Assembly: GCA_038087875.1 (NCBI GenBank)
Contig: CM075989.1
Coordinates: 14,572,001-14,636,000 of the forward strand
Length of the DNA: 64,000 nucleotides
Reading direction: 5' to 3'
From: Malacoraja senta
Lineage: Eukaryota
Shown: positions 22,586-64,000 of the stretch, one piece after another
Position numbering within the stretch: position 1 is the stretch's first letter
Layout of the letters: every line of letters begins with the position of its first letter
Translations under genes and position numbers: made by a program
The notes under the pieces: model-generated
Database searches by the model: none
What the model was told of the DNA's origin: nothing
What the model saw: only the letters and a program-made list of their open reading frames with translations

Positions 22586-22681
22586 TTTTAAACCGGCCCC
22601 CCTCTCAAAGGCGCCAAAGTTGCGCACACGGCCAGTGACAGAACTGCACCGCCGCTGAAGGTAAGTTTTGTAACATACCTA
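22586..22681 (+). mobile_element. Right end of hAT-like DNA transposon (family of 32811-33850)
   Basis: Aligns to 33756-33850 and ends in the same CTGAAGGTAAGTTTTGTAACATACCTA. Confidence 0.8.
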
Positions 22682-23010
22682 CTCAGTATCTGCAAGATTT
22701 TCAGCTGTGAAGCCAGAAACCGTTATATTCACTGAGCAGATATTTTTTTGGACATTCGTTTACTAACAGAGGACATGAAATTTGAAAGGACGTTGGACTG
22801 ATTTCATATGGACTTATATTTGATTTGATAACTGGACTTAAATGATCGCCTTCATTTACAAGGAGGGGAAATACGTTGTGTCTAGAAGACTATCCTTACA
22901 GTCACCACTAGAGGGCTCTGCCCCTATATGGATGTTTTCGGGGAATCAGTCGGCGGCCATCTTAAAAGCCGACTTACTGGCTCGGTAATTATTGTCCGTC
23001 AAACACTACA
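22682..23010 (+). mobile_element. Gypsy-B 3' UTR, polypurine tract and short 3' LTR (22874-23010)
   Basis: Inverted copy of 28750-29079; PPT AAGGAGGGGAAA followed by a ~137-bp LTR ending ACACTACA. Confidence 0.7.
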
Positions 23011-23109
23011 GGAACGGGGTACTGATTGTGGATGATCAGCCATGATCACATTGAATGGTGCTGCTGGCTCGAAGGGGCGAATGGCCTACTGCACCTATTG
23101 TCTATTCTT

Positions 23110-23786
23110 CAGTCTGAAGAAGGGTCTCGACCCGAAACGTCGCCTATTCCTTCGCTCCATAGATGATGCCTCACCCGCTGAGTTTCTCCAGGTTTTTGTC
23201 TACCTTCGATTTTCACAGCATCTGCACTTCTTTCTTAAACATAGGAATCTGAGGGGTAACTTTTCCATACAGAGGGGGTTTATATGGAATGAGCTGCCAG
23301 AGGAGGTAGTTGAGGCAGGGACTATCGCTATGTCTAAAAGACACTTGGATAGGTACATGGATAGGACAGGTTTAGAGGGACATGGGCCATTGTGAGCAGT
23401 TCTGGATCCCACATCTGAGGAAGGATGTGCTTGGCACTGCAGAGGGTCCAGAGGAGGTTTACAAGAACGATCCCAATAATGAATGGGTTAATGTGCGATG
23501 AGCGTTTATCTGCATTGGGCCTGGACTTGCTGGAGTTTGGAAGAATGAGTGGGTGAGTTCCTCATTAAAACTTTCCCAAATAGTGAAAGGCTTGGATAGA
23601 GTGGATGTGGAGAGGATGTTTCCACTAGTGAGAGAGTCTCAGACCAGAGGGCACAGCCTCAAAATTAAAGGGCGTTCCTTTAGAATGAAGATGGGGAGGA
23701 ATTTCTTTAGTCAGTGGGTGGTGAATCTGTGTGACTCTGTGATTTCCCTCCCCCAGCCCTGCCTCCTCTCTCCCCTTGTCTCTATC
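23110..23786 (+). repeat. Partial copy of the 1.38-kb composite repeat unit
   Basis: Near-identical to 53892-54568; cut at CTATC by the Gypsy-A LTR. Confidence 0.85.
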
Positions 23787-26700
23787 TGTGGTATTATGGA
23801 ATAATAGTGTAAGGAATGCCTTTATTCTGCTGCCAGTGGTCAGGCTGCAGTGACGGCATCCGGCCTGAAGGTGGGGCTGTGGGCGTAACCGGGGAGGCCT
23901 AGGAGCAGGGCCTAGGGATGCAGCACGAGGCTGCTGCTGTACAGAGTTGCTAAATAAAGACAGACTCCGATTACGACGTTGTACGAGCCTCATTATAAGA
24001 ATAATTCGACATGGTGTCAGAAACGGGATACTTGTAAGCGAAAAAAAAAGAAGAAGAAGTGGAAAGTGTATCGTTTTGGCGGAGAAATGTGAGATGAGCT
24101 GGCAGATATGGGGCACCCTACACCAACTGCTACGTTCACAATACAACCTCCAGAGACATTCGATTTTACCAAGCCTCAAGAATGGGAGCATTGGATCAGG
24201 AGATTCGACCGCTTTCGGCTTGCAAGCAACTTAAACGCAACGTCGGAAGAAAACCAGGTGAACACGTTCGTGTATTGCATGGGCGATGAAGCCGAAAATG
24301 TGCTAAAGGGGCTAACGCTAACTGCAGATGAGAGGAAGATGTACACGGATGTCAAGGCGGGCTTTGATGCATTTTTTGTGCCTAAAAAGAATGTAATCTA
24401 CGAAAGAGCCAAGTTCAATCAGCGTGTGCAACTGCCAGGAGAAACGGTGGATTCCTTCATCACTGCTCTATATGGATTAGCTGAACACTGCAACTATGGA
24501 CAGTTACAGAACCAGCTGATCCGCGACAGGTTAGTGGTCGGGCTGAGAAACGTCTCATTGTCAGAAAAGCTACAGCTAGACAGAGACCTAACCCTTGGAA
24601 CTGCGATAACAAAGACAAGGCAGTCTGAAGAAGTTAGACGACAGCGGTCTGACTTAAGAGGAGAAAATGGCGGTGCTAGCAAGTGCTCTAATGTTGATGC
24701 TGTGCATGCTAAAAGCTACAGAAAACCCAAATGTCCCTCAAAGCCTCAGCCACAAGCACAAACACCAGGCAAAAATAAACGTAATACACGGCCACAGCCA
24801 GGTTCAAAGGCCTGTTATAGATGTGGAAAAATGCCCTCGCATGGAAAATGGGAATGCCCTGCTAAAGATGCTGTGTGTCACAACTGTGGCAAAAAGGGAC
24901 ATTATGGCAAAGTGTGCAGAAACAGTGCAAAATCTCTGAATGCTGTCACTACAGAGGAAGAAGAGAGCTTTTTCCTGGGAGCCGTGGATGCTGGAAAAGA
25001 CCCGTGGACGGAGCAGCTACAAGTGAGACAAAAAAAAGTGTGCTTTAAAATAGACACTGGTGCTGATGTCACCGTCATGCCAGCCGAGGTGTACCATGAC
25101 ATTACAGGGGGGCATGATGGGAAGCGCCTGGCTGTGTCGACACGCCCGTTGTTTCGGCCAGGGGTCAATGCACTCTCTGTCCTAGGTGTAGCCAGAGAAA
25201 CACTGCGCAGAGGCAAAAAGACAGCCATAGAGAACATTTCTGTAGTAAAAGACCTGCACACTGCACTGTTGGGAAGGCCTGCAATAGAACAGCTTCAGCT
25301 TGTGTGCAGGGTTGACAGCATCACCATGGAATCAGTGAAACAACAATATCCGAAGCTGTGTAGCGGCTTGGGTCTTGTTCTGAGGCCATACTCAATTAAA
25401 TTAAAGCCAGAGGCTGTGCCCTTCTCTCTCCACACACCACGCAGAGTCCCTCTGCCGCTTATGGGAAAAGTGAAGGAGGAGATAGACCGTATGGAGAAGA
25501 TGGGCGTAATCACCAAGATTGAGGAGCCGACTGATTGGTGTGCCGGGATGGTGGTGGTGCCGAAAAAAGAAGGTGATGTTCGCATTTGTGTGGATTTCAC
25601 AATGATGAATGAATCAGTATGCAGAGAAAAGTTTATCCTGCCTTCTGTCGAGCACACTCTGGGCATGCTAGCTGGCGCAACAGTCTTCAGCAAATTAGAT
25701 GCCAACATGGGCTTTTGGCAAGTACCATTGACAAAAGAGTCTGCCAAATACACCACCTTCATCACGCCTTTTGGGCGCTACTATTTTAACCGTCTACCCT
25801 TTGGCATAGCATCAGCCCCCGAGCACTTTCAAAGGATGATGGTGACAGAAGTGACCGGTGGCCTGGAGGGGGTACTGTGTCACATGGATGACATCCTAGT
25901 CTGGGGACAGACGCAGGAGGAGCATGATGTGCGGCTACATGCGGTGCTAGAGAAGGCACAAAAGGCCGGCATTACGCTCAACATGGACAAATGTGAGCTC
26001 ACACGCCACACAGTCGGATTCCTGGGTCATGTGATTTCAGCAGATGGAGTGAAGCCAGATCCAGAGAAGACGAGAGCAGTAGAAGAGATGGATGCACCCA
26101 AAAATGTCAGCGAACTCAGGAGTTTTCTGGGCATGGTCAATCAGCTGGGCCGCTTCTTGCCTAACCTGGCTGAAAAAGACAAAGTGCTACGAGACCTGCT
26201 GTCCAAGAAGAACCACTGGCACTGGGGGACAGAGCAGCAGGCCGCCTTTGATCAGTTAAACACAGAGCTGTCATCCACACCAGTGCTCACATTCTACAAC
26301 CCAAACAGTGCTCTAAAGATCTCTGCTGATGCCTCTTCCTTTGGCCTGGGGGCAGTCCTGCTGCAGAAGAGCGATGCCATGTGGTCACCTGTGGCATATG
26401 CGTCCAGGTCAATGACGCCAACAGAGCAGCGCTATGCTCAAGTAGAGAAGGAGGCATTGGCTGCAACGTGGGCATGTGAAAGGTTCAGCTGTTTCATCCT
26501 GGGAAGACCATTCGAGCTGGAAACTGACCATAAGCCGTTGGTGAGTCTGCTGGGAAGGAAAGCTTTGGATGACCTCCCACCAAGAATCCAAAGATTTAGG
26601 ATGAGACTCATGAGGTACAACTATACAGTGAATCATGTCCCTGGCAAAAGCCTGTGGACAGCCGACACCTTATCTCGTGCTCCTCTGAGAGCCGCAAGAG

Positions 26701-28577
26701 CACACACAGGCACAAGCCTATTAGAGGGCACCAACATCTATGTAGACTCTGTCATCAGCAACATTCCTGTCAGTGGAGATTATCTGAGCAGCCTACGTGA
26801 GCACCTGAAGGCAGACAGCACATGCTCTGCACTGATGGAGTACTGCACAGACGGCTGGCCCGACAAAAGCCAACTGCAGGGAGTGCTGAGACATTACTGG
26901 GCTGATAGAGCAGTGCTGACTGTGCACGATGGGCTGCTGCTGCGGGGCACGAGGCTCGTCATCCCATCAGCCTTACAAGGTGATGTGCTGCAGAGACTAC
27001 ATGAGGGACACCTGGGGGTGACAAAGTGCAGGGGCCGGGCCAAACAGACGGTATGGTGGCCAGGACTCAGCAGCCAGCTGAATGACATGGTGCTGAAATG
27101 TAGAACCTGCATCCAAGAGAGAAGGAACGTCAAAGAGCCGCTGATGCCAATGGAGATGCCAGACAGGCCTTGGCAAACCTTGGGAGCTGACCTGTTCACG
27201 CTGAAACACAAGACGTATCTACTAGTAGTAGATTATTTCTCAAGGTATGTGGAAGTTGCGCTGCTGTCACCCACAAGGTCCACAGATGTGGTGGTGCACC
27301 TGAAATCCATGTTTTATCGTCATGGAATTGGGGAATTTCTTCAAAGTGACAATGGGCCCCAGTTCTCAGGTAGCCACTTTAAAGCCTTTGCAGCAGAGTA
27401 TGGCTTTGTACACATCACGAGCAGCCCCAAGTATCCTCAGAGCAATGGGGAGGCGGAACGCGCTGTATAAACCGTGAAAAACCTGCTAACAAAGGCATCA
27501 GACCCATATCTTGCATTGCTGGCCTACAGAGCAACCCCTCTACAGAACGGCTCTAGCCCGGCCGAGCTGTTGATGGGGCGCTGCCTCCGCACTACAGTTC
27601 CTGCCCTTCCAACCCTGCTGAATCCAGTTTTGCCTGACTACAACGCACTGGGGGCCAAAGAAAGGGAGAAGAGGAGAAACGACGCAAGATCCTTCGACAA
27701 GAGGCACAGAGCGAGAAACCTGGAGCCACTCGTACCTGGGGAGGATGTGTGGATCACCGATGCATGAGTCCAGGGCACAGTGCTATCTACACACAACACC
27801 CCATCGCTCTTATATCGTCCAGGTGCCTCAGGGCACACTGAGGAGGAACCGGCATCACTTGGTGCCGCTGCAGACCAACAGTGGGGTGGTCGACGCTGAT
27901 GAGCCACCGGTGGGGGAAGATTCACCTACACCAGAGCCAGCTCCACCAGTGACAACATCACCCAGCAGAGAGGGCCCCACCACAGAGACTGTGCAGACCA
28001 GGTGTGGGAGAGAGGTTAGAAACCGCAGAGACTTGATTGGTGAGTTATTGATTTGTTTTCTACAGTAAAAAAAAAGAGAGAGTGAAATGTGAGTGAAATT
28101 GTTCTGCTTTACTGGTTACATTTACCTGAAACCTGAGAGTTTAAGTATTGAAGAACAGCCTGCTAAAGTAATAGTTCACAGTATGGTAACGTGTAAGTTA
28201 TTTTATTTCTATTTTGCATGCTTGAAACAGGGACAGATCAGGGACAGGTCTTCCAGCAAAAGGGCAGAATAAACCCCGTAAGACCTGCAGAGACAAAGGT
28301 AGTCCACCCTTTGTTCTCAAAGAAAGGGAGATGTGGTATTATGGAATAATAGTGTAAGGAATGCCTTTATTTTGTAGTAACCGGAGGGTAGCGCTGCTGC
28401 CAGTGGTCAGGCTGCAGTGACGGCTTCCGGCCTGAAGTTGGGGCTGTGGGGGTAACCGGATGGACGTAGGGGCCGGGCCCGGGCATGCACACGAGGCTGC
28501 TGCTGTACAGAGTTGCTAAATAAAGACAGACTCCGATTACGTCGTTGTACGAGCCTCATTATAAGAATAACACGACA
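23787..28577 (+). mobile_element. Ty3/Gypsy LTR retrotransposon (Gypsy-A), full length
   Basis: LTRs TGTGG..CGACA at 23787-24011 and 28332-28577; PBS TGGTGTCAGAAACGGGAT (tRNA-Leu-like) 24012-24029; PPT AAAGAAAGGGAGA; PR-RT-RH-IN domain order. Confidence 0.97.
24108..27470 (+). CDS. Gypsy-A Gag-Pol polyprotein, truncated in integrase by a premature stop
   Basis: 1120 aa: two Cys/His knuckles (CYRCG..H..C, CHNCGKKGHYGKVC), protease DTGA, RT LPFG..HMDD, RNase H ADASS..EKEALA..ETDHKPL, integrase HEGH..C..C and D-D-E; TAA at 27468 is CAA in the second copy and homology continues to ~28040. Confidence 0.93.
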   Translation: MGHPTPTATFTIQPPETFDFTKPQEWEHWIRRFDRFRLASNLNATSEENQVNTFVYCMGDEAENVLKGLTLTADERKMYTDVKAGFDAFFVPKKNVIYERAKFNQRVQLPGETVDSFITALYGLAEHCNYGQLQNQLIRDRLVVGLRNVSLSEKLQLDRDLTLGTAITKTRQSEEVRRQRSDLRGENGGASKCSNVDAVHAKSYRKPKCPSKPQPQAQTPGKNKRNTRPQPGSKACYRCGKMPSHGKWECPAKDAVCHNCGKKGHYGKVCRNSAKSLNAVTTEEEESFFLGAVDAGKDPWTEQLQVRQKKVCFKIDTGADVTVMPAEVYHDITGGHDGKRLAVSTRPLFRPGVNALSVLGVARETLRRGKKTAIENISVVKDLHTALLGRPAIEQLQLVCRVDSITMESVKQQYPKLCSGLGLVLRPYSIKLKPEAVPFSLHTPRRVPLPLMGKVKEEIDRMEKMGVITKIEEPTDWCAGMVVVPKKEGDVRICVDFTMMNESVCREKFILPSVEHTLGMLAGATVFSKLDANMGFWQVPLTKESAKYTTFITPFGRYYFNRLPFGIASAPEHFQRMMVTEVTGGLEGVLCHMDDILVWGQTQEEHDVRLHAVLEKAQKAGITLNMDKCELTRHTVGFLGHVISADGVKPDPEKTRAVEEMDAPKNVSELRSFLGMVNQLGRFLPNLAEKDKVLRDLLSKKNHWHWGTEQQAAFDQLNTELSSTPVLTFYNPNSALKISADASSFGLGAVLLQKSDAMWSPVAYASRSMTPTEQRYAQVEKEALAATWACERFSCFILGRPFELETDHKPLVSLLGRKALDDLPPRIQRFRMRLMRYNYTVNHVPGKSLWTADTLSRAPLRAARAHTGTSLLEGTNIYVDSVISNIPVSGDYLSSLREHLKADSTCSALMEYCTDGWPDKSQLQGVLRHYWADRAVLTVHDGLLLRGTRLVIPSALQGDVLQRLHEGHLGVTKCRGRAKQTVWWPGLSSQLNDMVLKCRTCIQERRNVKEPLMPMEMPDRPWQTLGADLFTLKHKTYLLVVDYFSRYVEVALLSPTRSTDVVVHLKSMFYRHGIGEFLQSDNGPQFSGSHFKAFAAEYGFVHITSSPKYPQSNGEAERAV

Positions 28578-28749
28578 CTCAGCGGGTGAGGCAGCATCTA
28601 TGGAGCGAAGGAATAGGCGACGTTTCGGGTCGAGACCCTTCTTCAGACTGAAGAATAGACAATAGGTGCAGTAGGCCGTTCGCCCCTTCGAGCTAGCACC
28701 GCCATTCAATGTGATCATGGCTGATCATCCACAATCAGTACCCCGTTCC

Positions 28750-31625
28750 TGTAATGTTTGACGGACAATAATTACCGATCCAGTAAGTCGGCTTTTAAGA
28801 TGGCTGCCGACTGATTCCCCGAAAACATCCATATAGGGGCAGAGCCCTCTAGTGGTGACTGTAAGGACAGTCTTCTAGACACAATGTATTTTCCCCTCCT
28901 TGTAAATGAAGGCGATCATTTAAGTCCAGTTATCAAATCAAATATAAGTCCATATAAAATCAGTCCAACGTCCTTTCAAATTTCATGTCCTCTATTAATA
29001 AACGGATGTCCAAAAAAATAACTGCTCAGTGAATATAACGGTTTCTGGCTTCACAGCTGAAAATCTTGCAGATACTGAGGTCTCTTCTGTTGCTGAGAGC
29101 GTGGAGCGGGATTTGGCTGCTCTGCTGCAAGCGACCGCGATCGCTGTCATGACTGGATATCAGGAAAGGAAAAGCATCCGGTTCGTCTTCTTCCTGTCTC
29201 TGTCTGCTTGCGATAAGACGTCTCGCGTTCCCTCTGGTGTTATCGTGGAGGAGGTACGCGTTCTCACCGAGTCTCCCTTTGATCTGTATCGGCTTTGAGA
29301 GTGCGCTTGCGAGCTTACGCTGTCTGTTGGGGGGCTGATTCGTACCCAGTCGCCGACCTTGAACCGCGGCGCTCGCTTGTACTCTGCGTTTGGCATCAAC
29401 GTACGTTTTCCCTTTCACTTGTCTGTGTGATATCGTTTCCGCCCTCGCGTTTGTGTCTGTATTTGTGCGCGATGGTGGTTGAAGAGCATTCAGTTTCGTT
29501 CGCAGCTTTCACCCTGTCATCAACTCTGCTGGCGTTTTCCCAGTCAGCGTGTGCGGTGTGGATCTGTAGGATCGGAGGAGGATATGGATTGACTGTTCAA
29601 ATGTTTTCCCCTCCGACATGCTCGCTTTTACGCTTTCTTTGATCACGTGATTGAATCGTTCAACCCCGCCGTTCGATTGGGGGTTGTATGTCGACGTCCG
29701 CTGATGTTGAATGTCATAACTCGCGAGGAAGGTGGAGAACTGTTCAGATATGAACTGTGGGCCTTTGTCTGTCGTTATGACCTCCGACAGTCCCCACTTG
29801 GTGAACAGCTTTTCGAGAATCACGATGATCAAGCTTGTCGTGACTGAAGAAGTAGTTGCGATCTCAGGCCACTTGCTGTGGAGATCATGTACAACAAGTA
29901 GAAACCGCTGGCTTCTTGGCGCAGCTTACACCTCTCCGAAGATGTCGAGTTGCAAGTGCCTCCATGGTTTGTCCAGCCATGGGATTGGCTAAAGAGGGGC
30001 AGGACATGGTTTTGTTGCTTTCTCACTAATTCTGCAAGCTTCACAATCTTTAATGAAATCTTCTACGCGACGATCTATTGCTGGCCACCCCACTGCCTCG
30101 CGACACCGTTGTTTCATCTTAACAACGCCAGGGTGTCCTTCGTGTGCCAGTTGTAACATGCGGTGTTGCAGTGATTTGGGTATAACCACTCGAGTTCCAC
30201 GCGTGACACACGTATCGTCAAACACAGCCAGTTCTTGGCGTACCCGGTGGTACGGAACATAGATACATAGATACATAGAAAATAGGTGCAGGAGTAGGCC
30301 ATTCGGCCCTTGGAGCCTGCACCGCCATTCAATATGATCATGGCTGATCATCCAACTCAGTATCCCATACCTGCCTTCTCTCCATACCCCCTGATCCCTT
30401 TAGCCACAAGGGCCACATCTAACTCCCTCTTAAATATAGCCAATGAACTGGCCTCAACTACCCTCTGTGGCAGAGAGTTCCAGACATTCACCACTCTCTG
30501 TGTGAAAACGTTTTTCCTCATCTCGGTCTTAAAGGATTTCCCCCTTATCCTTAAGCTGTGACCCCTTGTCCTGGACTTCCCCAACATCGGGAACAATCTT
30601 CCTGCATCTAGCCTGTCCAACCCCATCTCCTCTGCTATCTCCTTGGGCCAGTCTGTCCTGAGATACTGGCAGATGATTTGCAGTGTGCCTGCCGTCAGCT
30701 GTCGATTCTTCCTTTCTGCTCTCCCCGCGTTACTAGATTTGCCGTCATGTGCAAAATCACGATGTCGCTTGAAGTGTCGCTATCGTGTGTGTGTGTGTGT
30801 GTGCGTGCCACCGTTGGGACGTGACTGAGCATGTCTGCGATACGATTGTGTGAACCTGCGAGGTATTCGATTTCGAAGTTGTACTGATTAAGGCGATCGG
30901 ACCATCTGTAGATCCGGAGCGGACGATGTCCTGAGCCTGACGTATCCAGTAACGTAGTTAGCGCTTGGTGATCCGCACGGAGAGTGAATGGTCTCCCATA
31001 TAGGTATAGGTGTCAGTGTTCACACGTGTAGATGCACGCTAATGCTTCGCGTTCCCCGGTGGAGTACTTACGTTCAATTGTAGTCAAGGGACGGGACGCG
31101 AATGCGATCAGTCGTTCACTTCCATCGATGCCCTGAGATAACACCGCTCCGATCGCGATACTGGAAGGGTCTGGGGTGGCGTACGTTTCAGCACTTGTAT
31201 CAAAGTGCACGAGAACAGGCGGAGATGCTATTTTGTCTTTCAGCGTGTTGAACGCAATGTCCTGCCCGCTTGTCCATTCCCACTGTGTGTCTTTCTGTAG
31301 CAGCTTCCGTAGCGGTTCTGCGATCTGCGCGTACTGCGGCACAAACTTGCGGTAGTAGTTGGTGGTGCCCAGTAATGAAGCTAAGTCTTTCGTGTTAGTT
31401 GGGGTGGGGAGCACATTGATGGCTTGGACATTGTCCTGAGAAGGCTCAACTCCAGTCGCTGTCACTCTGTACCCGAGAAAATCGCTGTCGGATGCTGCAA
31501 ATGAACACTTTGCTGCGTTGAGCATCACGTTGTGGTGCACGAGACGAGCTAACGCTGCATCCAGTCGTCGATCGTGTTCCTCCTTGTCCCTTCCATGGAC
31601 CACGACATCGTCGAGGAGGTTGAGT
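28750..31625 (-). mobile_element. Degenerate Ty3/Gypsy element (Gypsy-B): RT C-half, RNase H, integrase, PPT, 3' LTR (28750-28886)
   Basis: LLDDVVVHG..AKCSF..FLGY..PTPTN, FASRPLT..ERKYSTGEREALAC, AHEGHPGVVKMK..WP..CEAC, TDKGPQF..YNPQSNGGVERFN; several frameshifts and stops. Confidence 0.9.
30256..30625 (-). mobile_element. CR1 3' fragment nested in Gypsy-B
   Basis: ORF 30357-30626 nearly identical to the CR1 at 19700-20070; interrupts Gypsy-B between EEM and VPYH. Confidence 0.9.
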
Positions 31626-31971
31626 GTCTGAGAAGGAGAGAGAGAGAGAGAGAGAGAGAGAGGGGAAGGAGAAAGGGGGGAAAGGATGGTGTGAATGTGA
31701 GAGAGTGAGGAGGGAGATAGAGAGTTATAGAATAATACAGTGTGGAAACGGGCCCTTTGGTCCAACTCGCCCACACCGGCCAACAATGTCCCAGCTACCC
31801 TCATCCCACTTGCCTGCGCTTGGTCCAGAACCTTCCAAACCTGTCCTAACGATGGGATAGTCCCAGCCTCAACTACCTCGTGTGGCAACTTGTTCCAAAA
31901 ACCCACCACCCTCTGTGTGAAAAAGTTACCCCTCGGATTCCTATTCAATCTTTTCCCCTTCACCTTGAATC

Positions 31972-32642: not shown

Positions 32643-32810
32643 GATGTCCTCTGGTCCTCGATTCCCCTACTCTGGGTAAAAGACTGTGCATCTACCTGAT
32701 CTATTCCTCTCATGAGTTTGTACACCTCTATAAGATCTCCCACATCCTCCTGTGCTCCAGGAATAGAGACCCAGCCTACTCATCCTCTCCCTATAGCTCA
32801 CACCCTCTAG

Positions 32811-36453: not shown

Positions 36454-36488
<35 letters not shown>

Positions 36489-37195: not shown

Positions 37196-37199
37196 CGAC

Positions 37200-40782: not shown

Positions 40783-40837
<55 letters not shown>

Positions 40838-52772: not shown

Positions 52773-55370
52773 GGACATGGGCCATTGTGAGCAGTTTTGG
52801 GTCCCACATCTGAGGAAGGATGTGCTTGGCACTGCAGAGGGTCCAGAGGAGGTTTACAAGAACGATCCCAATAATGAATGGGTTAATGTGCGATGAACGT
52901 TTGTCTGCACTGGGCCTGGACTTGCTGGAGTTTGGAAGAATGAGGGGGTGGGTTCCTCATTAAAACTTTCCCAAATAGTGAAAGGCTTGGATAGAGTGGA
53001 TGTGGAGAGGATGTTTCCACTAGTGAGAGAGTCTCGGACCAGAGGGCACAGCCTCAAAATTAAAGGGCGTTCCTTTAGAATGAAGATGGGGAGGAATTTC
53101 TTTAGTCAGTGGGTGGTGAATCTGTGTGACTCTGTGACTTCCCTCCCCAGCCCTGCCTCCTCTCTCCCCTTGTCTCTATCCACGGGATCGACCTTCCCAC
53201 CCGGTATCGCCCTCCCACTCAGCATGATCGAATGACCGGGTGGGGGTCACAAAGGACACTGCGGGTCATCAGCGGGGAGTGAGTGTGACTGAGGTGGCCC
53301 TCTTGGTTATGAGCATTTGCAGCAAGTGACTGACTGAGGGGAGGCTGCTACCATCTTGGTGCAGGGCAATTAGTGGAAGTGACTGTGACTGAAGAGTACG
53401 GAAGCCATCTTGGTGAGGGGCGTTTGTAGCAATGGCGACCATCTTGGTGAGGGGCATCAACCACATTTTGTATTATAACGTGTTATATTGTATTATAGTG
53501 TGTTATATTGTGTTAAGTTGTGTTATAGTGTATTATATTGTATTTGGGTGTGTTCAAAATCGTGTGTCATAACGTATTATATTGTATTATGGTGCATTAT
53601 GTATCATAGTGCATTATAACTTTATTCCTTTGAGCGCAGGAGGATGTGGGATGATCTTATAGAGGTGTACAAAATCATCACAGGAATAGTTCGAGTAGAT
53701 GCACAGAGTCCCTTGCCAGAGTAGGGGAATCGACGACCAGAGGACATCGGTTTAAGGTGAAGGGAAAGATTCAACAGGAATCTGAGGTAGACAAAAAAGC
53801 TGGAGAAATTCAGCGGATGAGGCAGCATCTATGGAGTGAAGGAATAAGCGACGTTTCAGGTCGAGACCCTTCTTTAAACTGACCCTTTTTCAGTCTGAAG
53901 AAGGGTCTCGACCCGAAACGTCGACTATTCCTTTGCTCCATAGATCCTGCCTCACCGGCTGAGTTTCTCAGGGTTTTTGTCTACCTTCGATTTTTCCCAG
54001 CATCTGCATTTCTTTCTTAAACATAGGAGTCTGAGGGGTAACTTTTCCATACAGAGGGTGTTTGTATGGAATGAGCTGCCAGAGGAGGTAGTTGAGGCAG
54101 GGACTATCGCTATGTTTAAAAGACACTTGGACAGGTACATGGATAGGACAGGTTTAGAGGGACATGGGCCATTGTGAGCAGTTTTGGGTCCCACATCTGA
54201 GGAAGGATGTGCTTGGCACTGCAGAGGGTCCAGAGGAGGTTTACAAGAACGATCCCAGGAATGAGTGGGTTAATGTACGATGAGCGTTTGTCTGCACTGG
54301 GCCTGGACTTGCTGGACTTTGGAAGAATGAGGGGGTGAGTTCCTCATTAAAACTTTCCCAAATAGTGAAAGGCTTGGATAGAGTGGATGTGGAGAGGATG
54401 TTTCCACTAGTGAGAGAGTCTCGGACCAGAGGGCACAGCCGCAAAATTAAAGGGTGTTCCTTTAGAATGAAGATGGGGAGGAATTTCTTTAGTCAGAGGG
54501 TGGTGAATCTGTGTGACTCTGTGACTTCCCTCCCCCAGCCCTGCCTCCTCTCTCCCCTTGTCTCTATCCACGGGATCGACCTTCCCACCCAGTATCACCG
54601 TCCCACCCGGCATGAACGAATGACTGGGTGGGGGTCACAAAGGACACTGCGGGGCATCAGCGGGGAGTGAGTGTGACTGAGGCAGCCATCTTGTTGCGGG
54701 GCATTTGCAGCAAGTGACTGACTGAGGGGAGGCTGCTACCATCTTGGTGCAGGGAAATTAGTGGAAGTGATATGACTGAAGAGTACGGAAGCCATCTTGG
54801 TGAGGGGCGTTTGGGCGACCATCTTGGTGAGGGCATCAATCACATTTTGTATTATAGAGTGTTATATTGTATTATAGTGTGTTATATTGTGTTAAGTTGT
54901 GTTATAGTGTATTATATTGTATTTGGGTGTGTTCAGAATCGTGTGTCATAACGTATTATATTGTATTATGGTACATTATGTATTATAGTGCATTATAACT
55001 TTATTCCTTGGAGCGCAGGAGGATGTGGGATGATCTTATAGAGGTGTACAAAATCATGACAGGGATAGTTCGAGTAGATGCACAGAGTCCCTTGCCAGAG
55101 TAGGGGAATCGAGGACCAGAGGACGTCGGTTTAAGGTGAAGGGGAAAGATTTAACAGGAATCTGAGGTAGACAAAAAAGCTGGCGAAATTCAGCGGGTGA
55201 GGCAGCATCTATGGAGTGAAGGAATAAGCGAAGTTTCAGCTCGAGACCCTTCTTTAAACTGACCCTTTTTCAGTCTGAAGAAAGGTCTCGACCCAAACGT
55301 CACCTATTCCTTCGCTCCATAGATGCTGCTCACCCGCTGAGTTTCTCCAGGTTTTTGTCTACCTTCGATG
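52773..55370 (+). repeat. Tandem array of the 1.38-kb unit, about 1.9 copies, opposite orientation to 43245-48210
   Basis: Reverse complement of the 43-48 kb units; markers at ~53620 and ~55000. Confidence 0.95.
53895..53922 (+). ncRNA. Minimal type-I hammerhead ribozyme-like motif (Penelope pseudo-LTR), representative copy
   Basis: CUGAAGA-A-[GGGUC UC GACCC]-GAAA-CG-UC; equivalent copies at 23114-23141 (+), 44692-44719 (-), 46072-46099 (-); stem I very weak, activity unproven. Confidence 0.5.
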
Positions 55371-55970
55371 CTGATGCTGCCCATCCTGTTTACTTGACCT
55401 CCATCTCTAACTGAGACCCCTCTCTGCCCCATGTGCTCCACAGAGACCCACCATTCACCGTGTAGCTCCTGCCCACCTTCCCCTTTCAAAATGCGACGCC
55501 TCACACTTCTCTGTATTAGGCAGGAGATGGGGAGGTGTTTCTTTAGCCAGAGGGTGGTGAATCTGTGGGATTCTTTGCCACAGAAGGCGGTGGAGGCCAA
55601 GTCAGTGGGTGTTTTTAAGGCAGAGATAGATAGATAGATTGTTGATTGGTACGGGCTTGGATTGGAATGGGGTTAGGACGGAGAGATACATCACCCGTGA
55701 TTGAATGGTGGAATAGACTCGATGGACGAATGGCCTCATTCTGCTCCCGGAACTTGTGAACCGATCGGGATCCTGTCGCCATCCAAGCGGATGAGAGGGT
55801 GGGGGTTGTACAGATGTTTTATTCTGGTAGTCAATGCAGATGTGCTAATTTAATGTTTATTTCTGCTCTCTCCCTCCCTCCCTCTCTCTCCCTCTCTCCC
55901 CTTTTCTCTCGCCCTCTTTCTCTCCCCTCCCTCTCTCCCTCTCTCTCTTCCTCCCTCCCTCTTCCCACAG

Positions 55971-56565
55971 CTAACAAGTACAAGCCATCGATTGAGCAAG
56001 GAAGAGTGATGGAAAATGACCAAACTATCTTGCTAAATCCACCACTTTTCACCATTGATAAAGATGTCCCTCCATTATGCAGGTGAAGAGAGAGGATGGG
56101 AGGGGGGGGGGGTGAAGGGGATGGGTTGGGGGATGTGGGGCACCTCTCTGCTCCCCTCTATCCCTCCCTCTTTCCCCTCTCCCCCTCTCTCTCTCCCCTC
56201 TCCCGTCCCCCTCTCTCTCTCTCTCCCTATCTCTCTCCCCCTCTCTCCCACTCTCTCTACCCCCTCCCTCTCCCCTTTTCTCTCCCCCTCTCTCCCCCTC
56301 TCCCTCTTCTCTCCCCTCTCTCTTTCTTGCTCCCCCTCTCTTCCCCCTCTCTCTCTCCCCCTCTCTTACCCACTCTCTCCTCTCCTCCTCTCTCTCCCCC
56401 CTCCCCCTCTCCCTCTATCTCCCCTCTCTCTCTCTCCCTTTCTCTCCCTCTTTCTTACTCTCTCTCTCTCTCTCTCCCCCACTCTCTCTCTCCTCTTTCT
56501 CTCTCCCCCTCTCTTTCCGCCTCTCTCTCTCTCCTCTCACTTCTACATTGATAACAACGATAAGG

Positions 56566-56596
<31 letters not shown>

Positions 56597-57456
56597 GGGG
56601 GGGAGAGAGGGGGAGACAGGAAGACTTTCGATGAATTTAGTTGAGTTTATGACAGTCACCGAGCTACAATGAGAAGCTCTGTTTTGGGTGCAATCCAGTC
56701 AGTGGAAAGACTATACAATTGAGCCTCCCCTCTCTCTTCCCTCTCTCTCTCTGTCCTCCTCAGAGAATGACTTTGCACACAACGCGCTCACGCTCCACGG
56801 CCCTCGAGTGACGTCCTATATTGGCCCCAACTTGGAGATAGCCGACCCGTCAGATTTCGTTGGAATCTTGAGCAGGTACAGGCCGGGCGAGTTGGGAGGA
56901 CGGCAAATTTGGGGGCATAGGCAAAGCTTTTACTCCCCCTCATCCCCTCCCCTCCCCTCCCCTCCCCAGTCAAAAAGACTTCACGGCAGCCATTTTAAGC
57001 CGCCCATTCCCTCTCTCTCGAAATGGCCGCCTCAAAGCAGGTTGGAAAGTGTCATGGGAGGGGTGGATCAGGGAGGGAAGAGGTGGGGGGGGGGAACACG
57101 GATCACACTCCCTTCGCCCTCTTGCCCGCTGCTAGGGCAGTGAGGGAGGGAGCGGGACGGGAGGGAGAGAGGAGAGGGAGGCATCAGCGGGGGCGGCCAT
57201 TTTAAGCCGCCCATTCCCTCCCTCTTCAAAATGGTCGCCTAATGGCCTGTTTCCGCGCTGTATCTTTAAAACGGGATTCTGTCCTGGTCCAGGCCTGGGA
57301 TGGCAAGTGGCATCTCTACGCTCTGAGTCTCCAGTTTCCCACCATCATCTTCTATGTCGAGGGAGTGATCTACGAACCGGCCCTGATTCTCGACAGTGGG
57401 GCCCTTCCACCTGCCTCGTCCTAGCCCATGCCTCCTCATCGCAGCCTGCTGGAACG
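55971..57456 (+). pseudogene. CLSTN3: Calsyntenin-3 pseudogene, copy 2 (exons 55971-56082, 56764-56875, 57293-57456; interrupted by the gap)
   Basis: ANKYKPSIEQGRVMENDQTILLNPPLFTIDKDVP; ENDFAHNALTLHG..LYWPQLGDSRPVRFRWNLEQ; AWDGKWHLYALSLQFPTIIFYVEGVIYEPALILDSG..ACWN; AG/GT sites intact; each exon frameshifted. Confidence 0.92.
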
Positions 57457-57749
57457 GTGAGCTACAACAACCCTTCTCCCTCCTTCACTCCTCTCTCTCC
57501 CATACTCCCTCACTCTCTCACCCTCTCCCTCTCTCTCTCTCTCTCTCTCATCTGTCTCTACACCCTCCCCCCCCCCCCTCTCTCTCTCTATTTAACCGAG
57601 GATAGACACAAATGCTGGAGTAACTCAGCGGGACAGGCAGCAGCTTCTGAAGAGAAGGAATGGGTGACGTTTCGGGTCGAGAACCTTCTCAGACTTTGGT
57701 TTCAACCAGCATCTGCAGTTCCTTCCTATATACCCTCTTGCTCTTTCCA

Positions 57750-58135
<386 letters not shown>

Positions 58136-58303
58136 CTCTGTCTCACTGTCTCACTCTCTGCATTTCTGTTCAGTTCAGGGCACCGTGTTATAGGAAAGAT
58201 ATAGTGAAGCTTGAAAGGGTTCAGAGAGATTTACAAGGATGTTGCAGGACTCAAGGGGTGGGGCTGAGCTACAGGGAGCGGTTGGGTTGGCTGGGACTGT
58301 ATT

Positions 58304-58503
58304 NNNNNNNNNNNNNNNNNNNNNNNNNNNNNNNNNNNNNNNNNNNNNNNNNNNNNNNNNNNNNNNNNNNNNNNNNNNNNNNNNNNNNNNNNNNNNNNNN
58401 NNNNNNNNNNNNNNNNNNNNNNNNNNNNNNNNNNNNNNNNNNNNNNNNNNNNNNNNNNNNNNNNNNNNNNNNNNNNNNNNNNNNNNNNNNNNNNNNNNNN
58501 NNN
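58304..58503. other. Assembly gap (200 N)
   Basis: Run of N. Confidence 1.
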
Positions 58504-59170
58504 CTTCCTTCCATGAAGCCAATTTGCTATCCATTCATCTATCTCTCCTTGGATCCCATGCGATCTAACCTTCCATAGCAGCCTACCATGCGGCACCTTG
58601 TCGAACACCTTACTGAAGTCCATGTACACAACATCTACAGCTCTGCCTTCATCAACCTTTTTGCTCACGTCTTCAAAAAAATCAATTAGATTTGTGAGAC
58701 ATGACCTCCCGCGTACAAAACCATGCTGACTGGCCCTAATCAGCCCTTGCCCGTCCAAATGCCTGTATAACCTATTCCTCACAATACTCTCCAGTAACTT
58801 ACCAACTACAGATGTTAAGCTCACCGGCCGATAGTTCCCAGCATTTTCCGTGCAGCCCTTCTAGAAAAGAGGCACAACATTTGCCCCCCTCCAATCCTCT
58901 GGTACCTCTCCTGTATTTATCTACCAGAGGTCTGTCTACCTTCAAACACGGCAGTACCCTCAGTACTTCTTCCACGGTAACCCTGACTGCTCTCAAGACA
59001 CTTCCAGTCACTGCTCCAAGTTCCTCCGTCCTACTGTCTTTCTCCTGGGTAAATACTCATTGAGGACCTTGCCCATCTCCTGTGGCTCCACACAGAGGTG
59101 ACCGCTTTCATTCCTGCGCGGTCCCACTCTCTCTCTAGTTACCCTTTTCCCCCTTTATGTATTTATAACA
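58504..59170 (-). mobile_element. CR1 LINE RT fragment
   Basis: SLTSVVGKLLESI..SQHGFVRGRSCLTNLIDFFE..VDVVYMDFSKVFDKVPHGRLL. Confidence 0.9.
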
Positions 59171-59339
59171 TCATTAGAGGGGGGAGGCTGGTGTGAATGT
59201 GAGAGTTGGGGAAGTGCAGTGCGGGGCAGATGTGGGGAATGTGAAAGTGAGTGTGGAGGAGAGGAGATGTAGAGAGCACAGAGGGTAGGGAGAGGAAAGA
59301 TTTGTAGCAGGGAAATGAGAGGTTAGGGATTCTCTCTTT

Positions 59340-59920
59340 CTTCCTCACTCTCTATCTCTATCTCTCCCTATATCTCACTCTTTCACTCTCTCTCTCTCTC
59401 TCTCTCCCTCTCCCTCTTCCTCTCTCTCTCTCTTCCTCACCCCTCTCTCTCTCTCTCTCTTTCCCTCTCCTCTCTCTCTCTCTCTCTCTCTCCCCCCTCT
59501 CTCTCTCTCTCTTTCTCTCTCTCTCTTTCTCACTCTCTTTCTCTCTTTCCCTTTCGCTCTCTCTCTCTCGCTCTCTCTCCCCATCTGCCTCTCTCACTCT
59601 CCCTCTCTCCATCGCTCCCTCTCTCCCTCTCTCCCTCTCTCCCTCTCTCCCTCTCTCTCTCCCTCTTTCTCTCTCTCTTTCTCTTTCTCTCTCTCTCTCT
59701 CTCACTCTCTCTCTCTCCCCCTCCCCTACCTTGTCCTTTCCTCGACTCCCATCCCCTCAACTCCCTCCCATCCCCTCCCCTCCCCACTACTCCCCTCCCC
59801 ACTCCTCCCCTCCCCACTACTCCCCTCCCCACTCCACCCCTCCCCTCCCCTCCCCTCCCCATCCCTACCATCCCCTCCCCTCCCCACTACTCCCCTCCCC
59901 ACTCCTCCCCTCCCCTCCCA
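59340..59920. repeat. Polypyrimidine tract: (CT)n followed by (CCCCT)-type repeats
   Basis: Directly visible. Confidence 0.9.
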
Positions 59921-60054
59921 TTGCCGTGTTTCTTCACATTGTGTGATAGGCTTTCCATCATGGTCTAAATTAAAAACACGGTTAAATTGCCGCGGCCTCA
60001 CGCCTCCCTCTGCTCACACTCGCTCTTGCACGCAGTATCTGTGGAATCTGTGGC

Positions 60055-60270
60055 AGTCTGTGAATTCTCTGCCTCAGAGGGCGGTGGAGGCCGGTTTTCT
60101 GGATGTTTTCAAGAGAGAGCTAGATAGGGCTCTTGAAGACAGCGGAGTCAGGGGATATGGGGAGAAGGCAGGAACGGGGTACTGATTGGGGATGATCAGC
60201 CATGATCACATTGAATGGCGGTGCTGGCTCGAAGGGCCGAATGGCCTCCTCCTGCACCTATTGTCTATTG
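60055..60270 (+). mobile_element. CR1 3' end
   Basis: NSLPQRAVEAG..FKRELDRAL..GVRGYGEKAGTGY plus 3' UTR. Confidence 0.85.
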
Positions 60271-60680
60271 TATCAACCGGCACGTCTGCTGCCACACACC
60301 CACTGACACACCGATGCAAGCTCATTTGCACACTCACTAATACTCATTGACACACCAATACACACTGACACACACATTGATACACCCAATGCACCAATCA
60401 CTGGCATAGACAGGCATTGACACACCAACACACACCCATTAATACACTTTCACCAACACACAATCACTCACACACAATGCACTACCTGAGACCACATACA
60501 CACTCACCAATGCACACTTGCACACACTCGTTGGCACAAGGACTGATCCACACTCACACTCACACACACTCACACTCACACTCACTGACACACAAATATT
60601 GATGCACCAACACAACCCGCTAGTGCACACTCACCAATACACGCCGATACACGCTTATTTGCACAATCATTGCTACATAC

Positions 60681-61050
60681 TGTAGATTGGCTATTGCACG
60701 CTAGCCAATCATAGTGCTTGTTAGTAGTAGCCCCGTCTAGTAGGAGCTTTCTAATATCGAGCGTGCCTCCGTCAGGCAGGAGATGTCAAAGACACTAGAG
60801 GAGCCAAGATGCATCACTCAGTGAACAAAGCGTAGTATGACGTGTGTGATCGTCGACGCCATTTTATAGGGCTTGCCCGCACACTGTCATGGCGTCCACA
60901 TCTACAGCTCGGTGTAACTTGTTCTAATCGCTAGTATCTTTGGTAGATGGAGCAGCTCGGAGCTGTAACGTACTGCACATCCTATGTTGTGTAAATGCTT
61001 TAATAAAAAATGGGTTGTATCTTAACGTGTGTTTGGATCACCTTATTACA
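60681..61050 (+). mobile_element. Solo LTR (370 bp)
   Basis: TGTA..TACA termini, perfect 5-bp TSD CATAC (60676-60680 and 61051-61055), AATAAA near the 3' end. Confidence 0.85.
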
Positions 61051-61754
61051 CATACGTGTGCATGTCAATGTACAATGATGGGTGGACACTCATCGACACA
61101 CCAGTGCACACTCAATGATGTGTAATTACACACCCACTGTTACACACAAATACACAGGCACCAGGACACACATTTACACACTCAGACACACTTACTGACG
61201 CAGACTGACGGTCACAGGAGGGAGGGAGGGAATGGGGGAGGGCGGGTTCACACTGTCATGGTTTCCTGTATTCCCGTGCTCACACACGTGCTCGCTGGAT
61301 CAGTGAGTGTGCGCGGGTGAGCGTGCACCGTTGTGGGCGTAGTGGTGAGCAGGCGTTGCAGAGCGTCGGGCCAGCGTGAAAACCCTGCGCCGGCATCCGG
61401 AGCCTGGGATCCCTTGTCGGGGATCGCCGGAGATGGGCTCCAACCGCCGGCATGCCTGCGGCCTATAACATCCTGAAGCCTCGGTCTCCGGTAGTCTGGA
61501 GCAAACCAGCTTGGTTCAGTGAGTAAATGAAGAACTGTCTCCAGACTAACTTAAGTCTCCAGACACACATGTGTACCTTTGAGTTACCACAATGAAAACA
61601 TCTTTTTGCTGTTTACATCTGGTAAGATTACACTTCCTTCGCTTCCTCTAGTGGTGAATGCATTTCTTGATCTCAGCGGGCAGACATTACAAACACCATC
61701 ATTGCTCAGGACAGAAGCGGGTAAGAAAACGTTGAAGCATAAATGGTCTTACAC

Positions 61755-62597
61755 TTGAGTAGAATAGAATAGAAGGCCATTTATTGTCATTCAAACAAAC
61801 AGGGTTCAAACAAAATGTTGTTCCTGCAGTTATAACAGCAAAAAACCCAAACACACACTTAACACAATTCCACACAAACATCCATCACAGTGAATCTCCA
61901 AACACCTCCTCACTGTGATGGAAGGAAAAGTCTTATCTCTTCCCTGTTCTCTGTTCTTTATTCTTCTCCCGCGGTCAAGCTGTCAAACTGCTGCATCGAG
62001 CTGATCGATCGAGGCTGATGATGCTGGATCCCCCGGTGGGCGATGGTAAGTCCCGCGTCAGTTTGAGCCGCGCCGGGCGATGTAAGGCCCTGCTCCGGGT
62101 CGGTTTAAAATCGATTTAAACCCCTCGGTTCGGGCAGGAGAAGTTGCCGTTGCGGGAGCTCCAAAAAGCGGTCTCCCACCAGGGACCCGTGAGTTCCCGA
62201 TGTTACCGTCCACCGGGCCTGCAACCGAAGCCTCTGAAGTCGGGTCGCAGCCGCGCGCCACCACAGCCCTCCGCGCTCCGAAGTCAGCCAGCTCAGTGAT
62301 GGTGAATCCGCAGGCTCTGTGACTGGAGCCCCAGGTCGATTCCTGTTGGAGGCCGTCAGCTCCACAATGTTAGGCCCCAACGACAATGGAGACACGACAG
62401 GGAAAATGTTGCGTCCCCGTACAGGGAAGAGATTAAAAAGTCCCCCCCATCCCCCCCACATATACACAGCTACAAATAAAATAAAACTAAAACCAAAAAC
62501 ATAAACCTAACAGGACAAAAAGAAAGAAAAGACAGACAGACTGCAGTCGAGCCGCTGCCACAAGGTGGCGCCACACCGACAAAGTGTAGGAATGGAG
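61755..62597 (-). mobile_element. Non-autonomous GC-rich retroelement with (TTCTA)n tail
   Basis: Tail AGAATAGAATAGAA..TTTATTGTCATT at ~61760; 62381-62597 is the reverse complement of 34215-34431. Confidence 0.6.
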
Positions 62598-62887
62598 GAG
62601 AATAAACTGTAATGTCAACTGCAAACACCAAGACCAAACTCTCTATATCTCTAGTATAAATACACAATAAAAGGAGCAGCAGTTTACACAATAAAGGGCG
62701 AGAATGGAAAACACTTTTATCAACAATTTCAATGAGCACAACGATGTAGAACAGATTGGAGAATTGTCTGTCAGTGAACGCTTTGTCATTTGTGATAAAT
62801 ATGCAGTCATTAAATATTAATTCTGAATAAAAGAAATGTAAATATTTGTCCATTTGATAGAGTCGTTCTTCTATCTACAGAGGCTCT

Positions 62888-64000
62888 ACTGTCACTATCA
62901 ACTATTACCGCAAGTTTGTGCCGCAGTACGCGCAGATCGCAGAACCGCTACGGAAGCTGCTACAGAAAGACACACAGTGGGAATGGACAAGCGGGCAGGA
63001 CATTGCGTTCAACACGCTGAAAGACAAAATAGCATCTCCGCCTGTTCTCGTGCACTTCGATACAAGTGCTGAAACGTACACCACACCAGACCCTTCCAGT
63101 ATCGCGATCGGAGCGGTGTTATCTCAGGGCATCGATGGAAGTGAACGACTGATCGCATTCGCGTCCCGTCCCTTGACTACAATTGAACGTAAGTACTCCA
63201 CCGGGGAACGCGAAGCATTAGCGTGCATCTACGCGTGTGAACACTGACACCTATACCTATATGGGAGACCATTCACTCTCCGTGCGGATCACCAAGCGCT
63301 AACTACGTTACTGGATACGTCAGGCTCAGGACATCGTCCGCTCCGGATCTACAGATGGTCCGATCGCCTAATCAGTACAACTTCGAAATCGAATACCTCG
63401 CAGGTTCACACAATCGCATCGCAGACATGAACTTGCGCCCAAATCCAGACACAAAAGCGAGGGCGGAAACGATATCACACAGACAAGTGAAAGGGAAAAC
63501 GTACGTTGATGCCAAACGCAGAGTACAAGCGAGCGCCGCGGTTCAAGGTCGGCGACTGGGTACAAATCAGCCCCCCCAACAGACAACGTAAGCTCGCAAG
63601 CGCACTCTCAAAGCCGATACAGATCAAAGGGAGACTCGGTGAGAACGCGTACCTCCTCCACGATAACACCAGAGGGAACGCGAGACGTCTTATCGCAAGC
63701 AGACAGAGACAGGAAGAAGACGAACCGGATGCTTTTCCTTTCCTGATATCCAGTCATGACAGCGATCGCGGTCGCATGCAGCAGAGCAGCCAAATCCCGC
63801 TCCACGCTCCCAGCGACAGAAGAGACCTCAGTATCTGCAAGATTTTCAGCTGTGAAGCCAGAAACCGTTATATTCACTGAGCAGTTATTTTTTTGTACAT
63901 CCGTTTATTAATGGAGGACATGAAATTTGAAAGGACGTTGGACTGATTTTATATGGACTTATATTTGATTTGATAACTGGACTTAAATGATCGCCTTCAT
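62888..64000 (+). mobile_element. Gypsy-B duplicate: RNase H joined to integrase C-terminus, plus 3' UTR
   Basis: Reverse complement of ~31370-30830 and ~29470-28915, with a ~1.35-kb internal deletion at ~63430. Confidence 0.9.

What the first reader, a model, noticed from the sequence alone, without database searches (positions are those of the whole stretch)
22586..64000. Hidden head-to-tail macro-repeat behind the apparent palindrome
Seen: 40468-43600 mirrors 55000-58303, 34215-34431 mirrors 62381-62597, Gypsy-B 28915-31370 mirrors 62888-64000, and 22682-23181 mirrors 28578-29079. Both Gypsy-B copies share the same lesions (CEH-stop, and PDPSS in place of the RNase H DAS motif), so they were duplicated after decay. 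Inference: undoing the inversion gives direct repeats of [Gypsy-B end, 1.38-kb array, CLSTN3 exons, other repeats, Gypsy-B]. That would be the tail of one unit, two near-complete units of over 20 kb, and probably another beginning past 64000.
Basis: partly seen in the sequence, partly recalled or inferred. Interest (0 to 1): 0.7.

Follow-up and report, generated by a model that had tools for sequence, protein, structure and literature searches.

The report
Transposon-flipped tandem duplication carrying CLSTN3 relics
In what is likely a skate or ray genome, a segment of roughly 20 kb holding broken pieces of the calsyntenin-3 gene is present in two part-assembled copies plus a stub, likely head to tail, with one copy likely flipped by recombination between two retrotransposons; this is ordinary structural variation, and two assembly gaps leave the layout unproven.

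Summary
The mirrors are real (93-98% identity), as are the shared Gypsy-B lesions.

Inside contigs, two young Gypsy-A copies sit where the 1.38-kb array switches strand. [quoted passage not shown] The second junction has no duplication, lacks 195 bp and carries a variant LTR. Mapping 28578-48210 backwards makes 8 of 8 non-Gypsy-A blocks direct. The X|array and array|CLSTN3 junctions are base-identical between copies. The CLSTN3 exons are a deleted pseudogene fragment.

Limits: the right unit is only 11.2 kb as assembled (6.9 kb paired), not a near-complete 20-kb unit. The tail-to-head closure crosses both gaps. Flipping the middle contig gives an equally consistent circle-integration model. 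The middle contig carries many short indels, and no read depth was obtained.

Verdict: likely a real local segmental duplication with a retrotransposon-mediated inversion, a known kind of rearrangement.

The parts
22583..22681 (+). Right end of a non-autonomous DNA transposon (likely hAT-type; class recalled) marking the left edge of the duplicated block; its terminal repeat abuts X1
   Evidence: 86% to 33753-33851 over 100 bp; terminal repeat ends ...CATACCTA
22682..23104 (+). X1: Gypsy-B 3' end/partial LTR plus retroposon tail; stub of a truncated unit
   Evidence: 3.3% substitutions versus X2 (14 of 423; 11 transitions), 4.0% versus X3 (7 of 174)
23105..23786 (+). T: first half of a 1.38-kb array unit, ending in target site CTATC
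23787..28577 (+). Gypsy-A copy A1, LTRs 23787-24011 and 28332-28577; 1125-aa gag-pol frame ending at a premature stop in integrase; 3' LTR is a variant (22 bp longer, 4-5% substitutions)
   Evidence: Pfam RVT_1, RT_RNaseH, Integrase_H2C2, rve
28578..28655 (-). Lx: 78-bp start of an array unit on the opposite strand (left inversion junction)
28656..29079 (-). X2, joined to the array at the same base as X1
28906..31630 (-). Decayed Gypsy-B, left copy, with CR1 insert at 30258-30624 (left end at 31630 approximate)
   Evidence: Pfam RT/RNase H/integrase pieces; lesions
31631..34214 (.). Y: CR1 fragments and a ~1-kb DNA transposon (32811-33858); absent from the right arm
34215..34431 (-). 217-bp repeat piece paired with 62381-62597; ends at the contig edge
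   Evidence: 96.3%, 8 substitutions
34432..34631 (.). Assembly gap 1 (200 N)
34632..37196 (+). 10-bp satellite (CACACGTACA), about 260 copies, at the start of contig B
37197..40467 (-). Z1: three further CLSTN3 exons (about 39222-39172, 39017-38845, 38119-37968) seen only in the left arm; 39421-40360 resembles the array unit
   Evidence: tblastn with P0001/P0002; 84.5% over 407 bp to unit R1
40469..43242 (-). C-left: CLSTN3 exon relics (42614-42540, remnant near 42040-42018, 41846-41733, 41327-41149) among GA microsatellites
43243..48210 (-). 1.38-kb array, left arm (4,968 bp, about 3.6 units); starts with CTATC next to A2
48211..52772 (-). Gypsy-A copy A2, opposite orientation; 1.19% substitutions versus A1 internally, broken by many 1-bp indels
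52773..55369 (+). 1.38-kb array, right arm (2,597 bp, about 1.9 units)
55370..58303 (+). C-right: CLSTN3 exon relics (55970-56085, 56763-56878, 57284-57464)
58304..58503 (.). Assembly gap 2 (200 N)
58504..62380 (.). Z2: CR1 pieces, microsatellites and other repeats with no partner in the left arm
62381..62597 (+). 217-bp piece, right copy, followed by a 290-bp filler in place of Y
62887..64000 (+). Decayed Gypsy-B, right copy (1.36-kb internal deletion), ending in X3 (63827-64000), cut by the window edge

Best explanation
A segment made of a dead Gypsy-B end, a 1.38-kb tandem array and a deleted calsyntenin-3 pseudogene fragment is present here in two part-assembled copies and a stub, likely duplicated head to tail by unequal exchange, and one copy was likely then inverted by recombination between two oppositely oriented young Gypsy-A insertions in the arrays of neighbouring copies. 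Shown: the paralogous blocks, identical internal junctions, the strand switch of the array across each Gypsy-A inside a contig, and one exchanged 5-bp target duplication. Inferred order: (1) a CLSTN3 piece was copied, lost most exons for residues 59-397, and an intronic stretch seeded the 1.38-kb unit; (2) the whole block was duplicated (1.2-3.7% substitutions); (3) Gypsy-A inserted into the first array unit of two copies in opposite directions; (4) a deletion of 195 bp at the second site, probably recombination with a third Gypsy-A variant, removed that target duplication and left a variant LTR; (5) ectopic recombination inverted 28578-48210. The segments seen once (Z1, Z2) each face a gap in the other arm and are probably collapsed. 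No function is predicted.
For: Target CTATC is the 5' flank of A1 and the 3' flank of A2, and the two flanks rebuild an unbroken array unit found empty at 5 other places; landing in register by chance is about 1 in 1385. At 2 LTR columns A1-5' pairs with A2-3' and A1-3' with A2-5'; the first pair differs by 4 of 225 sites. Backward mapping makes 8 of 8 non-Gypsy-A blocks direct and collinear. X|array and array|C junctions are base-identical across copies. X1 and X2 lie in one contig and differ by 14 of 423 sites, 11 of them transitions. Gypsy-B lesions are shared. T's nearest unit is R0 (9 of 403 differences against 15-17 for the other four). The pattern matches published criteria (PMC2775673, passages) and tandem duplications dominate in vertebrates (bioRxiv 2024.11.22.624925, passages).
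Against: Only one of the two expected target duplications is exchanged; the other junction lacks 195 bp and its LTRs differ by 4.15% plus 22 bp. The tail-to-head closure crosses both gaps. The right arm pairs over 6,857 of 11,228 bp only. Contig B's orientation is unverified and its flip is equally consistent. Positional pairing of array units is weak: T-R0 share 4 of 8 pair-exclusive columns, all in one 20-bp cluster, L0-R0 only 1 of 13, and R0 is as close to L1 and L3 as to T. Short indels reach 12-16 per kb between the two CLSTN3 arms against 1.8-3.7 elsewhere, so contig B is probably a poor consensus and its divergence inflated. No read depth or spanning read was seen.
Confidence: 0.6

Rival explanations
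1. Part of the duplication is false: contig C, or one arm of contig B, is the other haplotype or an under-collapsed low-quality copy scaffolded next to its allele with gaps.
For: [quoted passage not shown] Mirrors end at gap edges and Z1 and Z2 are each present once. The two CLSTN3 copies carry different short indels in the same G run. X2 and X3 differ by only 2 of 174 sites.
Against: X1/X2 (contig A) and both CLSTN3 arms (contig B) are duplicated within single contigs. Gypsy-B left versus right differs by 1.5-1.8% (7 transitions to 1 transversion in the RNase H block) plus 1.36-kb and 2.8-kb indels; the cited paper gives heterozygosity of 0.1-1.1%, at most 1.6%, in its genomes.
Confidence: 0.15
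2. Contig B is scaffolded backwards. A1 and A2 are then direct repeats and the whole block A1...A2 sits inside one CTATC target duplication: a circle of one unit, popped out between two Gypsy-A copies in neighbouring units, re-entered by homologous recombination into a third copy.
For: The flip makes A1 and A2 direct and puts Z1-gap-Z2 in one arm, so gap 2 would hide only the rest of a satellite. One pop-out between two different insertions explains both the 195-bp loss and the variant LTR. A 23.7-kb contig made of duplicated sequence is hard to orient (general knowledge).
Against: Needs three insertions and a circle; gap 1 would have to hide at least 9.7 kb; the assembly as given has the other orientation.
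Confidence: 0.13
3. The duplication is real but the inversion is an assembler mis-join through the near-identical Gypsy-A copies.
For: A1 and A2 are 98% identical over 4.3 kb; a swapped path would also give exchanged flanks and chimeric LTR pairs.
Against: The switch occurs independently in two contigs; a 4.6-4.8-kb repeat with 1.19% substitutions is normally crossed by long reads (inference; read type unknown).
Confidence: 0.1
4. Contig B is a fold-back (mirror) read artefact.
For: Its length (23,672 bp) is near one long read and it is palindromic with many short indels.
Against: The arms hold 4,968 versus 2,597 bp of array, meet different sites at the two ends of a 4.56-kb non-palindromic element, and contig A shows the complementary junction.
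Confidence: 0.02

Closest known systems
TE-mediated inversion by ectopic recombination (Galileo-generated inversion 2z3 of Drosophila buzzatii; PMC2775673, abstract and passages read)
   Same: Two copies in opposite orientation at the breakpoints, an exchanged target duplication, chimeric copies.
   Different: LTR retrotransposon rather than DNA transposon; only one of two target duplications survives; about 20 kb, inside a local duplication; no non-inverted chromosome available for comparison.
Tandem segmental duplication in vertebrates (bioRxiv 2024.11.22.624925, passages read)
   Same: Over 1 kb, over 90% identical, within 1 Mb, carrying gene fragments.
   Different: Copies differ by kb-scale indels and array length, are interrupted by gaps, and one is inverted.
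False heterotype/homotype duplications in long-read assemblies (bioRxiv 2020.05.22.110833, passages read)
   Same: Duplicated sequence next to scaffold gaps, uneven consensus quality.
   Different: Key duplications lie inside single contigs and differ by transition-rich substitutions and by distinct transposon insertion sites.
Calsyntenin-3 (CLSTN3), closest named hit P0002 calsyntenin-3-like of Hemitrygon akajei
   Same: Exon relics match residues 22-58 and 398-608 of P0002, in gene order.
   Different: Residues 59-397 are missing but for a short remnant, nothing after 608 is in the window, and the frames are broken.

Membership tests
TE-mediated inversion by ectopic recombination | Two homologous copies in opposite orientation at the breakpoints | tested here: met
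   A1 (+) and A2 (-), 98% over 4.3 kb; holds as scaffolded, would reverse if contig B is flipped
TE-mediated inversion by ectopic recombination | Exchanged target-site duplications at both junctions | tested here: inconclusive
   One pair exchanged (CTATC); the other pair shows none and 195 bp are missing
TE-mediated inversion by ectopic recombination | Both copies chimeric | tested here: inconclusive
   2 LTR columns pair crosswise, but the A1 3' LTR differs from all three others by 4-5% plus 22 bp
TE-mediated inversion by ectopic recombination | Non-inverted arrangement in another chromosome or relative | not testable with these tools
   No genome held; no reads laid
Tandem segmental duplication | Blocks over 1 kb and over 90% identical that are not just one mobile element | tested here: met
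   40614-45835 versus 58004-52773, 92.7% over 5.3 kb, spanning array and CLSTN3 exons
Tandem segmental duplication | Head-to-tail contiguity of units | tested here: inconclusive
   X-array-C order is inside contigs; the closure from Z1 to the 217-bp piece crosses gaps
Tandem segmental duplication | Read depth matching the copy number | not tested
   No depth data were obtained; best run held 0.46 of sampled words
Macrosatellite (many near-identical multi-kb units) | Many copies of uniform unit length | tested here: not met
   Two part units and a stub in the window; units differ by 1.36 kb, 2.8 kb and array number; copies beyond the window unknown
Ty3/Gypsy LTR retrotransposon (Gypsy-A) | LTRs, short target duplication, RT-RNase H-integrase order | tested here: met
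   TG...CA LTRs of about 225 bp, 5-bp duplication, Pfam domains in that order
Unprocessed CLSTN3 pseudogene fragment | Exons with introns, in gene order, with disabling losses | tested here: met

The most novel reading that the evidence does not exclude
Contig B is backwards in the scaffold, and a whole genomic unit with CLSTN3 exons was excised as a circle between two Gypsy-A copies and re-integrated into a third, leaving a composite element bounded by two direct Gypsy-A copies and one 5-bp target duplication. Three insertions within about 600 bp of the same 1.38-kb unit would then point to a large, still growing amplicon family in which a young Gypsy element both targets the array and moves gene-bearing cargo through circles in a vertebrate germ line.
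Probability: 0.12. Interest if true: 0.55.

Novelty: new member of a known kind. Interest (0 to 1): 0.27.

Why it matters
If real, it is a tidy worked example of how a young LTR retrotransposon turns a tandem duplication into a palindrome in a cartilaginous fish, with the order of events readable from target duplications. It also warns annotators that CLSTN3 exon hits here are pseudogene relics and that this scaffold join needs curation. It opens no new mechanism and no function is evident.

Tried and rejected
No whole genome is held, so extension past 64000 and genome-wide CLSTN3 copy number were impossible. The run search listed 21 runs; none held half of the sampled words (best 0.46). None was laid, so this is no evidence either way. 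Earlier scan notes: three look-ups (place, sequence, words) returned nothing. PDB sequence searches with two exon translations found nothing. Idea that the left arm is the working CLSTN3 gene: rejected, residues 59-397 are nearly all absent in both arms and nothing after 608 is present. Fold-back read: rejected (unequal arms). Position-specific pairing of array units: my first impression of a strong L0-R0 link did not hold (1 of 13 columns). Sex-chromosome amplicon idea: shark X is homologous to part of human chromosome 12 (PMC10620051, passages) and human CLSTN3 lies on 12p (recalled), but CLSTN3 was not found in the supplements held for PMC12318234 (1 file) or PMC11406177 (2 files); the spreadsheet of PMC12318234 may not have been among them; untested. 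Searches 'clstn3 + shark' (4 papers) and 'calsyntenin-3 + pseudogene' (1 paper) listed nothing on this locus (listings only). The ORF at 20525-20893 had no Pfam, homologue or atlas hit; its single phmmer hit was a repetitive bacterial protein with no tblastn match in the window, judged spurious.
Full report
Setting. The window is animal DNA rich in CR1-type LINEs and SINEs (types recalled). The best CLSTN3 matches are an unnamed protein (P0001, 85% over the exon) and a stingray calsyntenin-3-like protein (P0002), so the host is likely a skate or ray. No whole genome is held. Two runs of 200 N at 34432-34631 and 58304-58503 split the window into contig A (to 34431), contig B (23,672 bp) and contig C (from 58504). 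The finding does not mention them, and they decide how much can be claimed.

Observation. All four mirrors exist: 40614-45835 with 58004-52773 (92.7%), 34215-34431 with 62597-62381 (96.3%), 22682-23186 with 29079-28574 (96.6%), and Gypsy-B in two blocks (98.1% and 98.0%) separated by 1.36 kb that the right copy lacks. Both Gypsy-B copies share the PDPSS stretch and the stop after CEH, so they were copied after decay. The 217-bp mirror and the CLSTN3 mirror stop exactly at gap edges.

The inversion. Two copies of a younger element, Gypsy-A, lie at 23787-28577 (+, A1) and 52772-48211 (-, A2), with LTRs of about 225 bp and RT, RNase H and integrase domains. Across each, inside one contig, the 1.38-kb array changes strand. 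The 5' flank of A1 ends in CTATC and the 3' flank of A2 begins with CTATC; together they rebuild an array unit that is found empty at 5 other places. That is one insertion whose two ends now lie 24 kb apart on opposite strands. Those two LTRs differ at 4 of 225 sites, and 2 LTR columns pair A1-5' with A2-3' and A1-3' with A2-5'. Opposite orientation, exchanged target duplications and chimeric copies are the published criteria for inversion by ectopic recombination (PMC2775673, abstract and passages; PMC8232201, passages). The second junction does not fit cleanly: it has no target duplication, 195 bp of array are missing, the A1 3' LTR has 22 extra bases and 4-5% substitutions, and A1 has 177 extra bases before it. 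A recombination between two further insertions, or a deletion with conversion, would explain this; both are inferences.

The macro-unit. Mapping 28578-48210 backwards makes 8 of 8 non-Gypsy-A blocks direct and collinear; A1-A2 stays inverted (2 of the 8 were direct already). The X|array junction is the same base in X1 and X2 and the array|CLSTN3 junction the same in both arms, so X-array-CLSTN3 was copied as one piece. Substitutions between copies are 1.2-3.7% in the longer pieces; X1 and X2, in one contig, differ at 14 of 423 sites, 11 by transitions. A third X begins at 63827, in line with another unit beyond 64000, untested. 37197-40467 (Z1, plus the 2.5-kb satellite) and 58504-62380 (Z2) occur once each, and each faces a gap in the other arm, as expected if both are collapsed. 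The 2.8-kb Y segment is replaced by 290 bp on the right. No contig shows the step from the CLSTN3 end of a unit to the Gypsy-B end. Array variants give weak positional support: T is nearest R0 (9 of 403 against 15-17), but R0 is as near L1 and L3; T-R0 share 4 of 8 pair-exclusive columns in one cluster, L0-R0 1 of 13.

CLSTN3 content. tblastn with P0001 and P0002 finds exons for residues 22-58, 398-436 and 433-492 of P0002 in both arms, a short remnant near residue 195, and three more exons (489-608) in Z1 only. The rest of 59-397 and everything after 608 are absent from the window. This is an internally deleted, unprocessed pseudogene fragment. Some frameshifts differ between the copies, for example two versus four G in the same run, and short indels run at 12-16 per kb here against 1.8-3.7 per kb in comparisons with contig A; these are probably consensus errors. 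An intron stretch in Z1 (39421-40360) matches the array unit in collinear pieces (84.5% over 407 bp), suggesting the unit arose from this same fragment earlier; the CR1-like pieces of that match may be family-level.

Rivals. (a) False duplication: common beside gaps in long-read assemblies (bioRxiv 2020.05.22.110833, passages), but the key duplications are intra-contig, and divergence and distinct insertion sites exceed the heterozygosity quoted there (0.1-1.1%, at most 1.6%); it stays possible for contig C. (b) Contig B flipped: A1 and A2 become direct, the whole block sits inside one CTATC duplication and Z1-gap-Z2 fall in one arm, the footprint of a circle re-entering by recombination; sequence alone cannot exclude it. 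(c) Mis-join through Gypsy-A gives the same swapped flanks but would have to happen in two contigs. (d) A fold-back read is excluded by unequal arms (4,968 versus 2,597 bp of array). No read evidence was obtained: 21 runs were listed, none with half of the words, and none was laid, so depth, phasing and orientation remain open.

Comparison and verdict. Tandem segmental duplications are the commonest kind in vertebrates (bioRxiv 2024.11.22.624925, passages), and transposon-mediated inversion is well known. Five literature searches (listings) showed no description of this locus; that is a limited library. bioRxiv 158386 was seen as abstract and outline only and concerns tandem TE dimers, a different origin. 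PMC10620051 (passages), PMC12318234 (passages and 1 supplement) and PMC11406177 (2 supplements searched) gave no placement of CLSTN3; supplements not held may bear on the sex-chromosome idea. It is a new instance of a known kind; interest 0.27.

Noticed in passing
window 20525-20893 and about 22332-22390: A 122-codon open frame ending at a GTAAG donor-like site, with a possible short in-frame terminal exon about 200 bp before the duplication's left edge; no Pfam, homologue or atlas support. May be a chance frame.
   Followed up: yes
window 32811-33858: A ~1-kb non-autonomous DNA transposon with TAG...CTA terminal repeats and an apparent 7-bp target duplication inside a CR1 fragment; a second copy's right end forms the left boundary at 22583-22681.
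   Followed up: partly
window 23182, 23378, 23786 (array unit positions): Three different Gypsy-A junction sites fall within about 600 bp of the same 1.38-kb unit, two of them unpaired; hints at more copies of the array elsewhere or at target preference.
   Followed up: partly
window 43243-43453 and equivalents (44621-44835, 46001-46215, 47394-47607, 53779-53992, 55159-55369): Each array unit holds a ~215-bp imperfect palindrome (82-87% self-complementary) made of two inverted SINE-like heads.
   Followed up: no
window 34632-58303: 22 matches to a YY1-like word (motif recalled) in contig B, against 0 in 1-22585 and 0 in contig C; GC rises from 44% in the left flank to about 50% in contigs B and C.
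   Followed up: no
window 34632-37196: A 2.5-kb, strongly strand-skewed 10-bp satellite (CACACGTACA) at the contig break.
   Followed up: no
window 30258-30624 versus 19703-20069: The CR1 fragment inserted in the left Gypsy-B is 96% identical to a CR1 tail in the single-copy flank, a young family.
   Followed up: no
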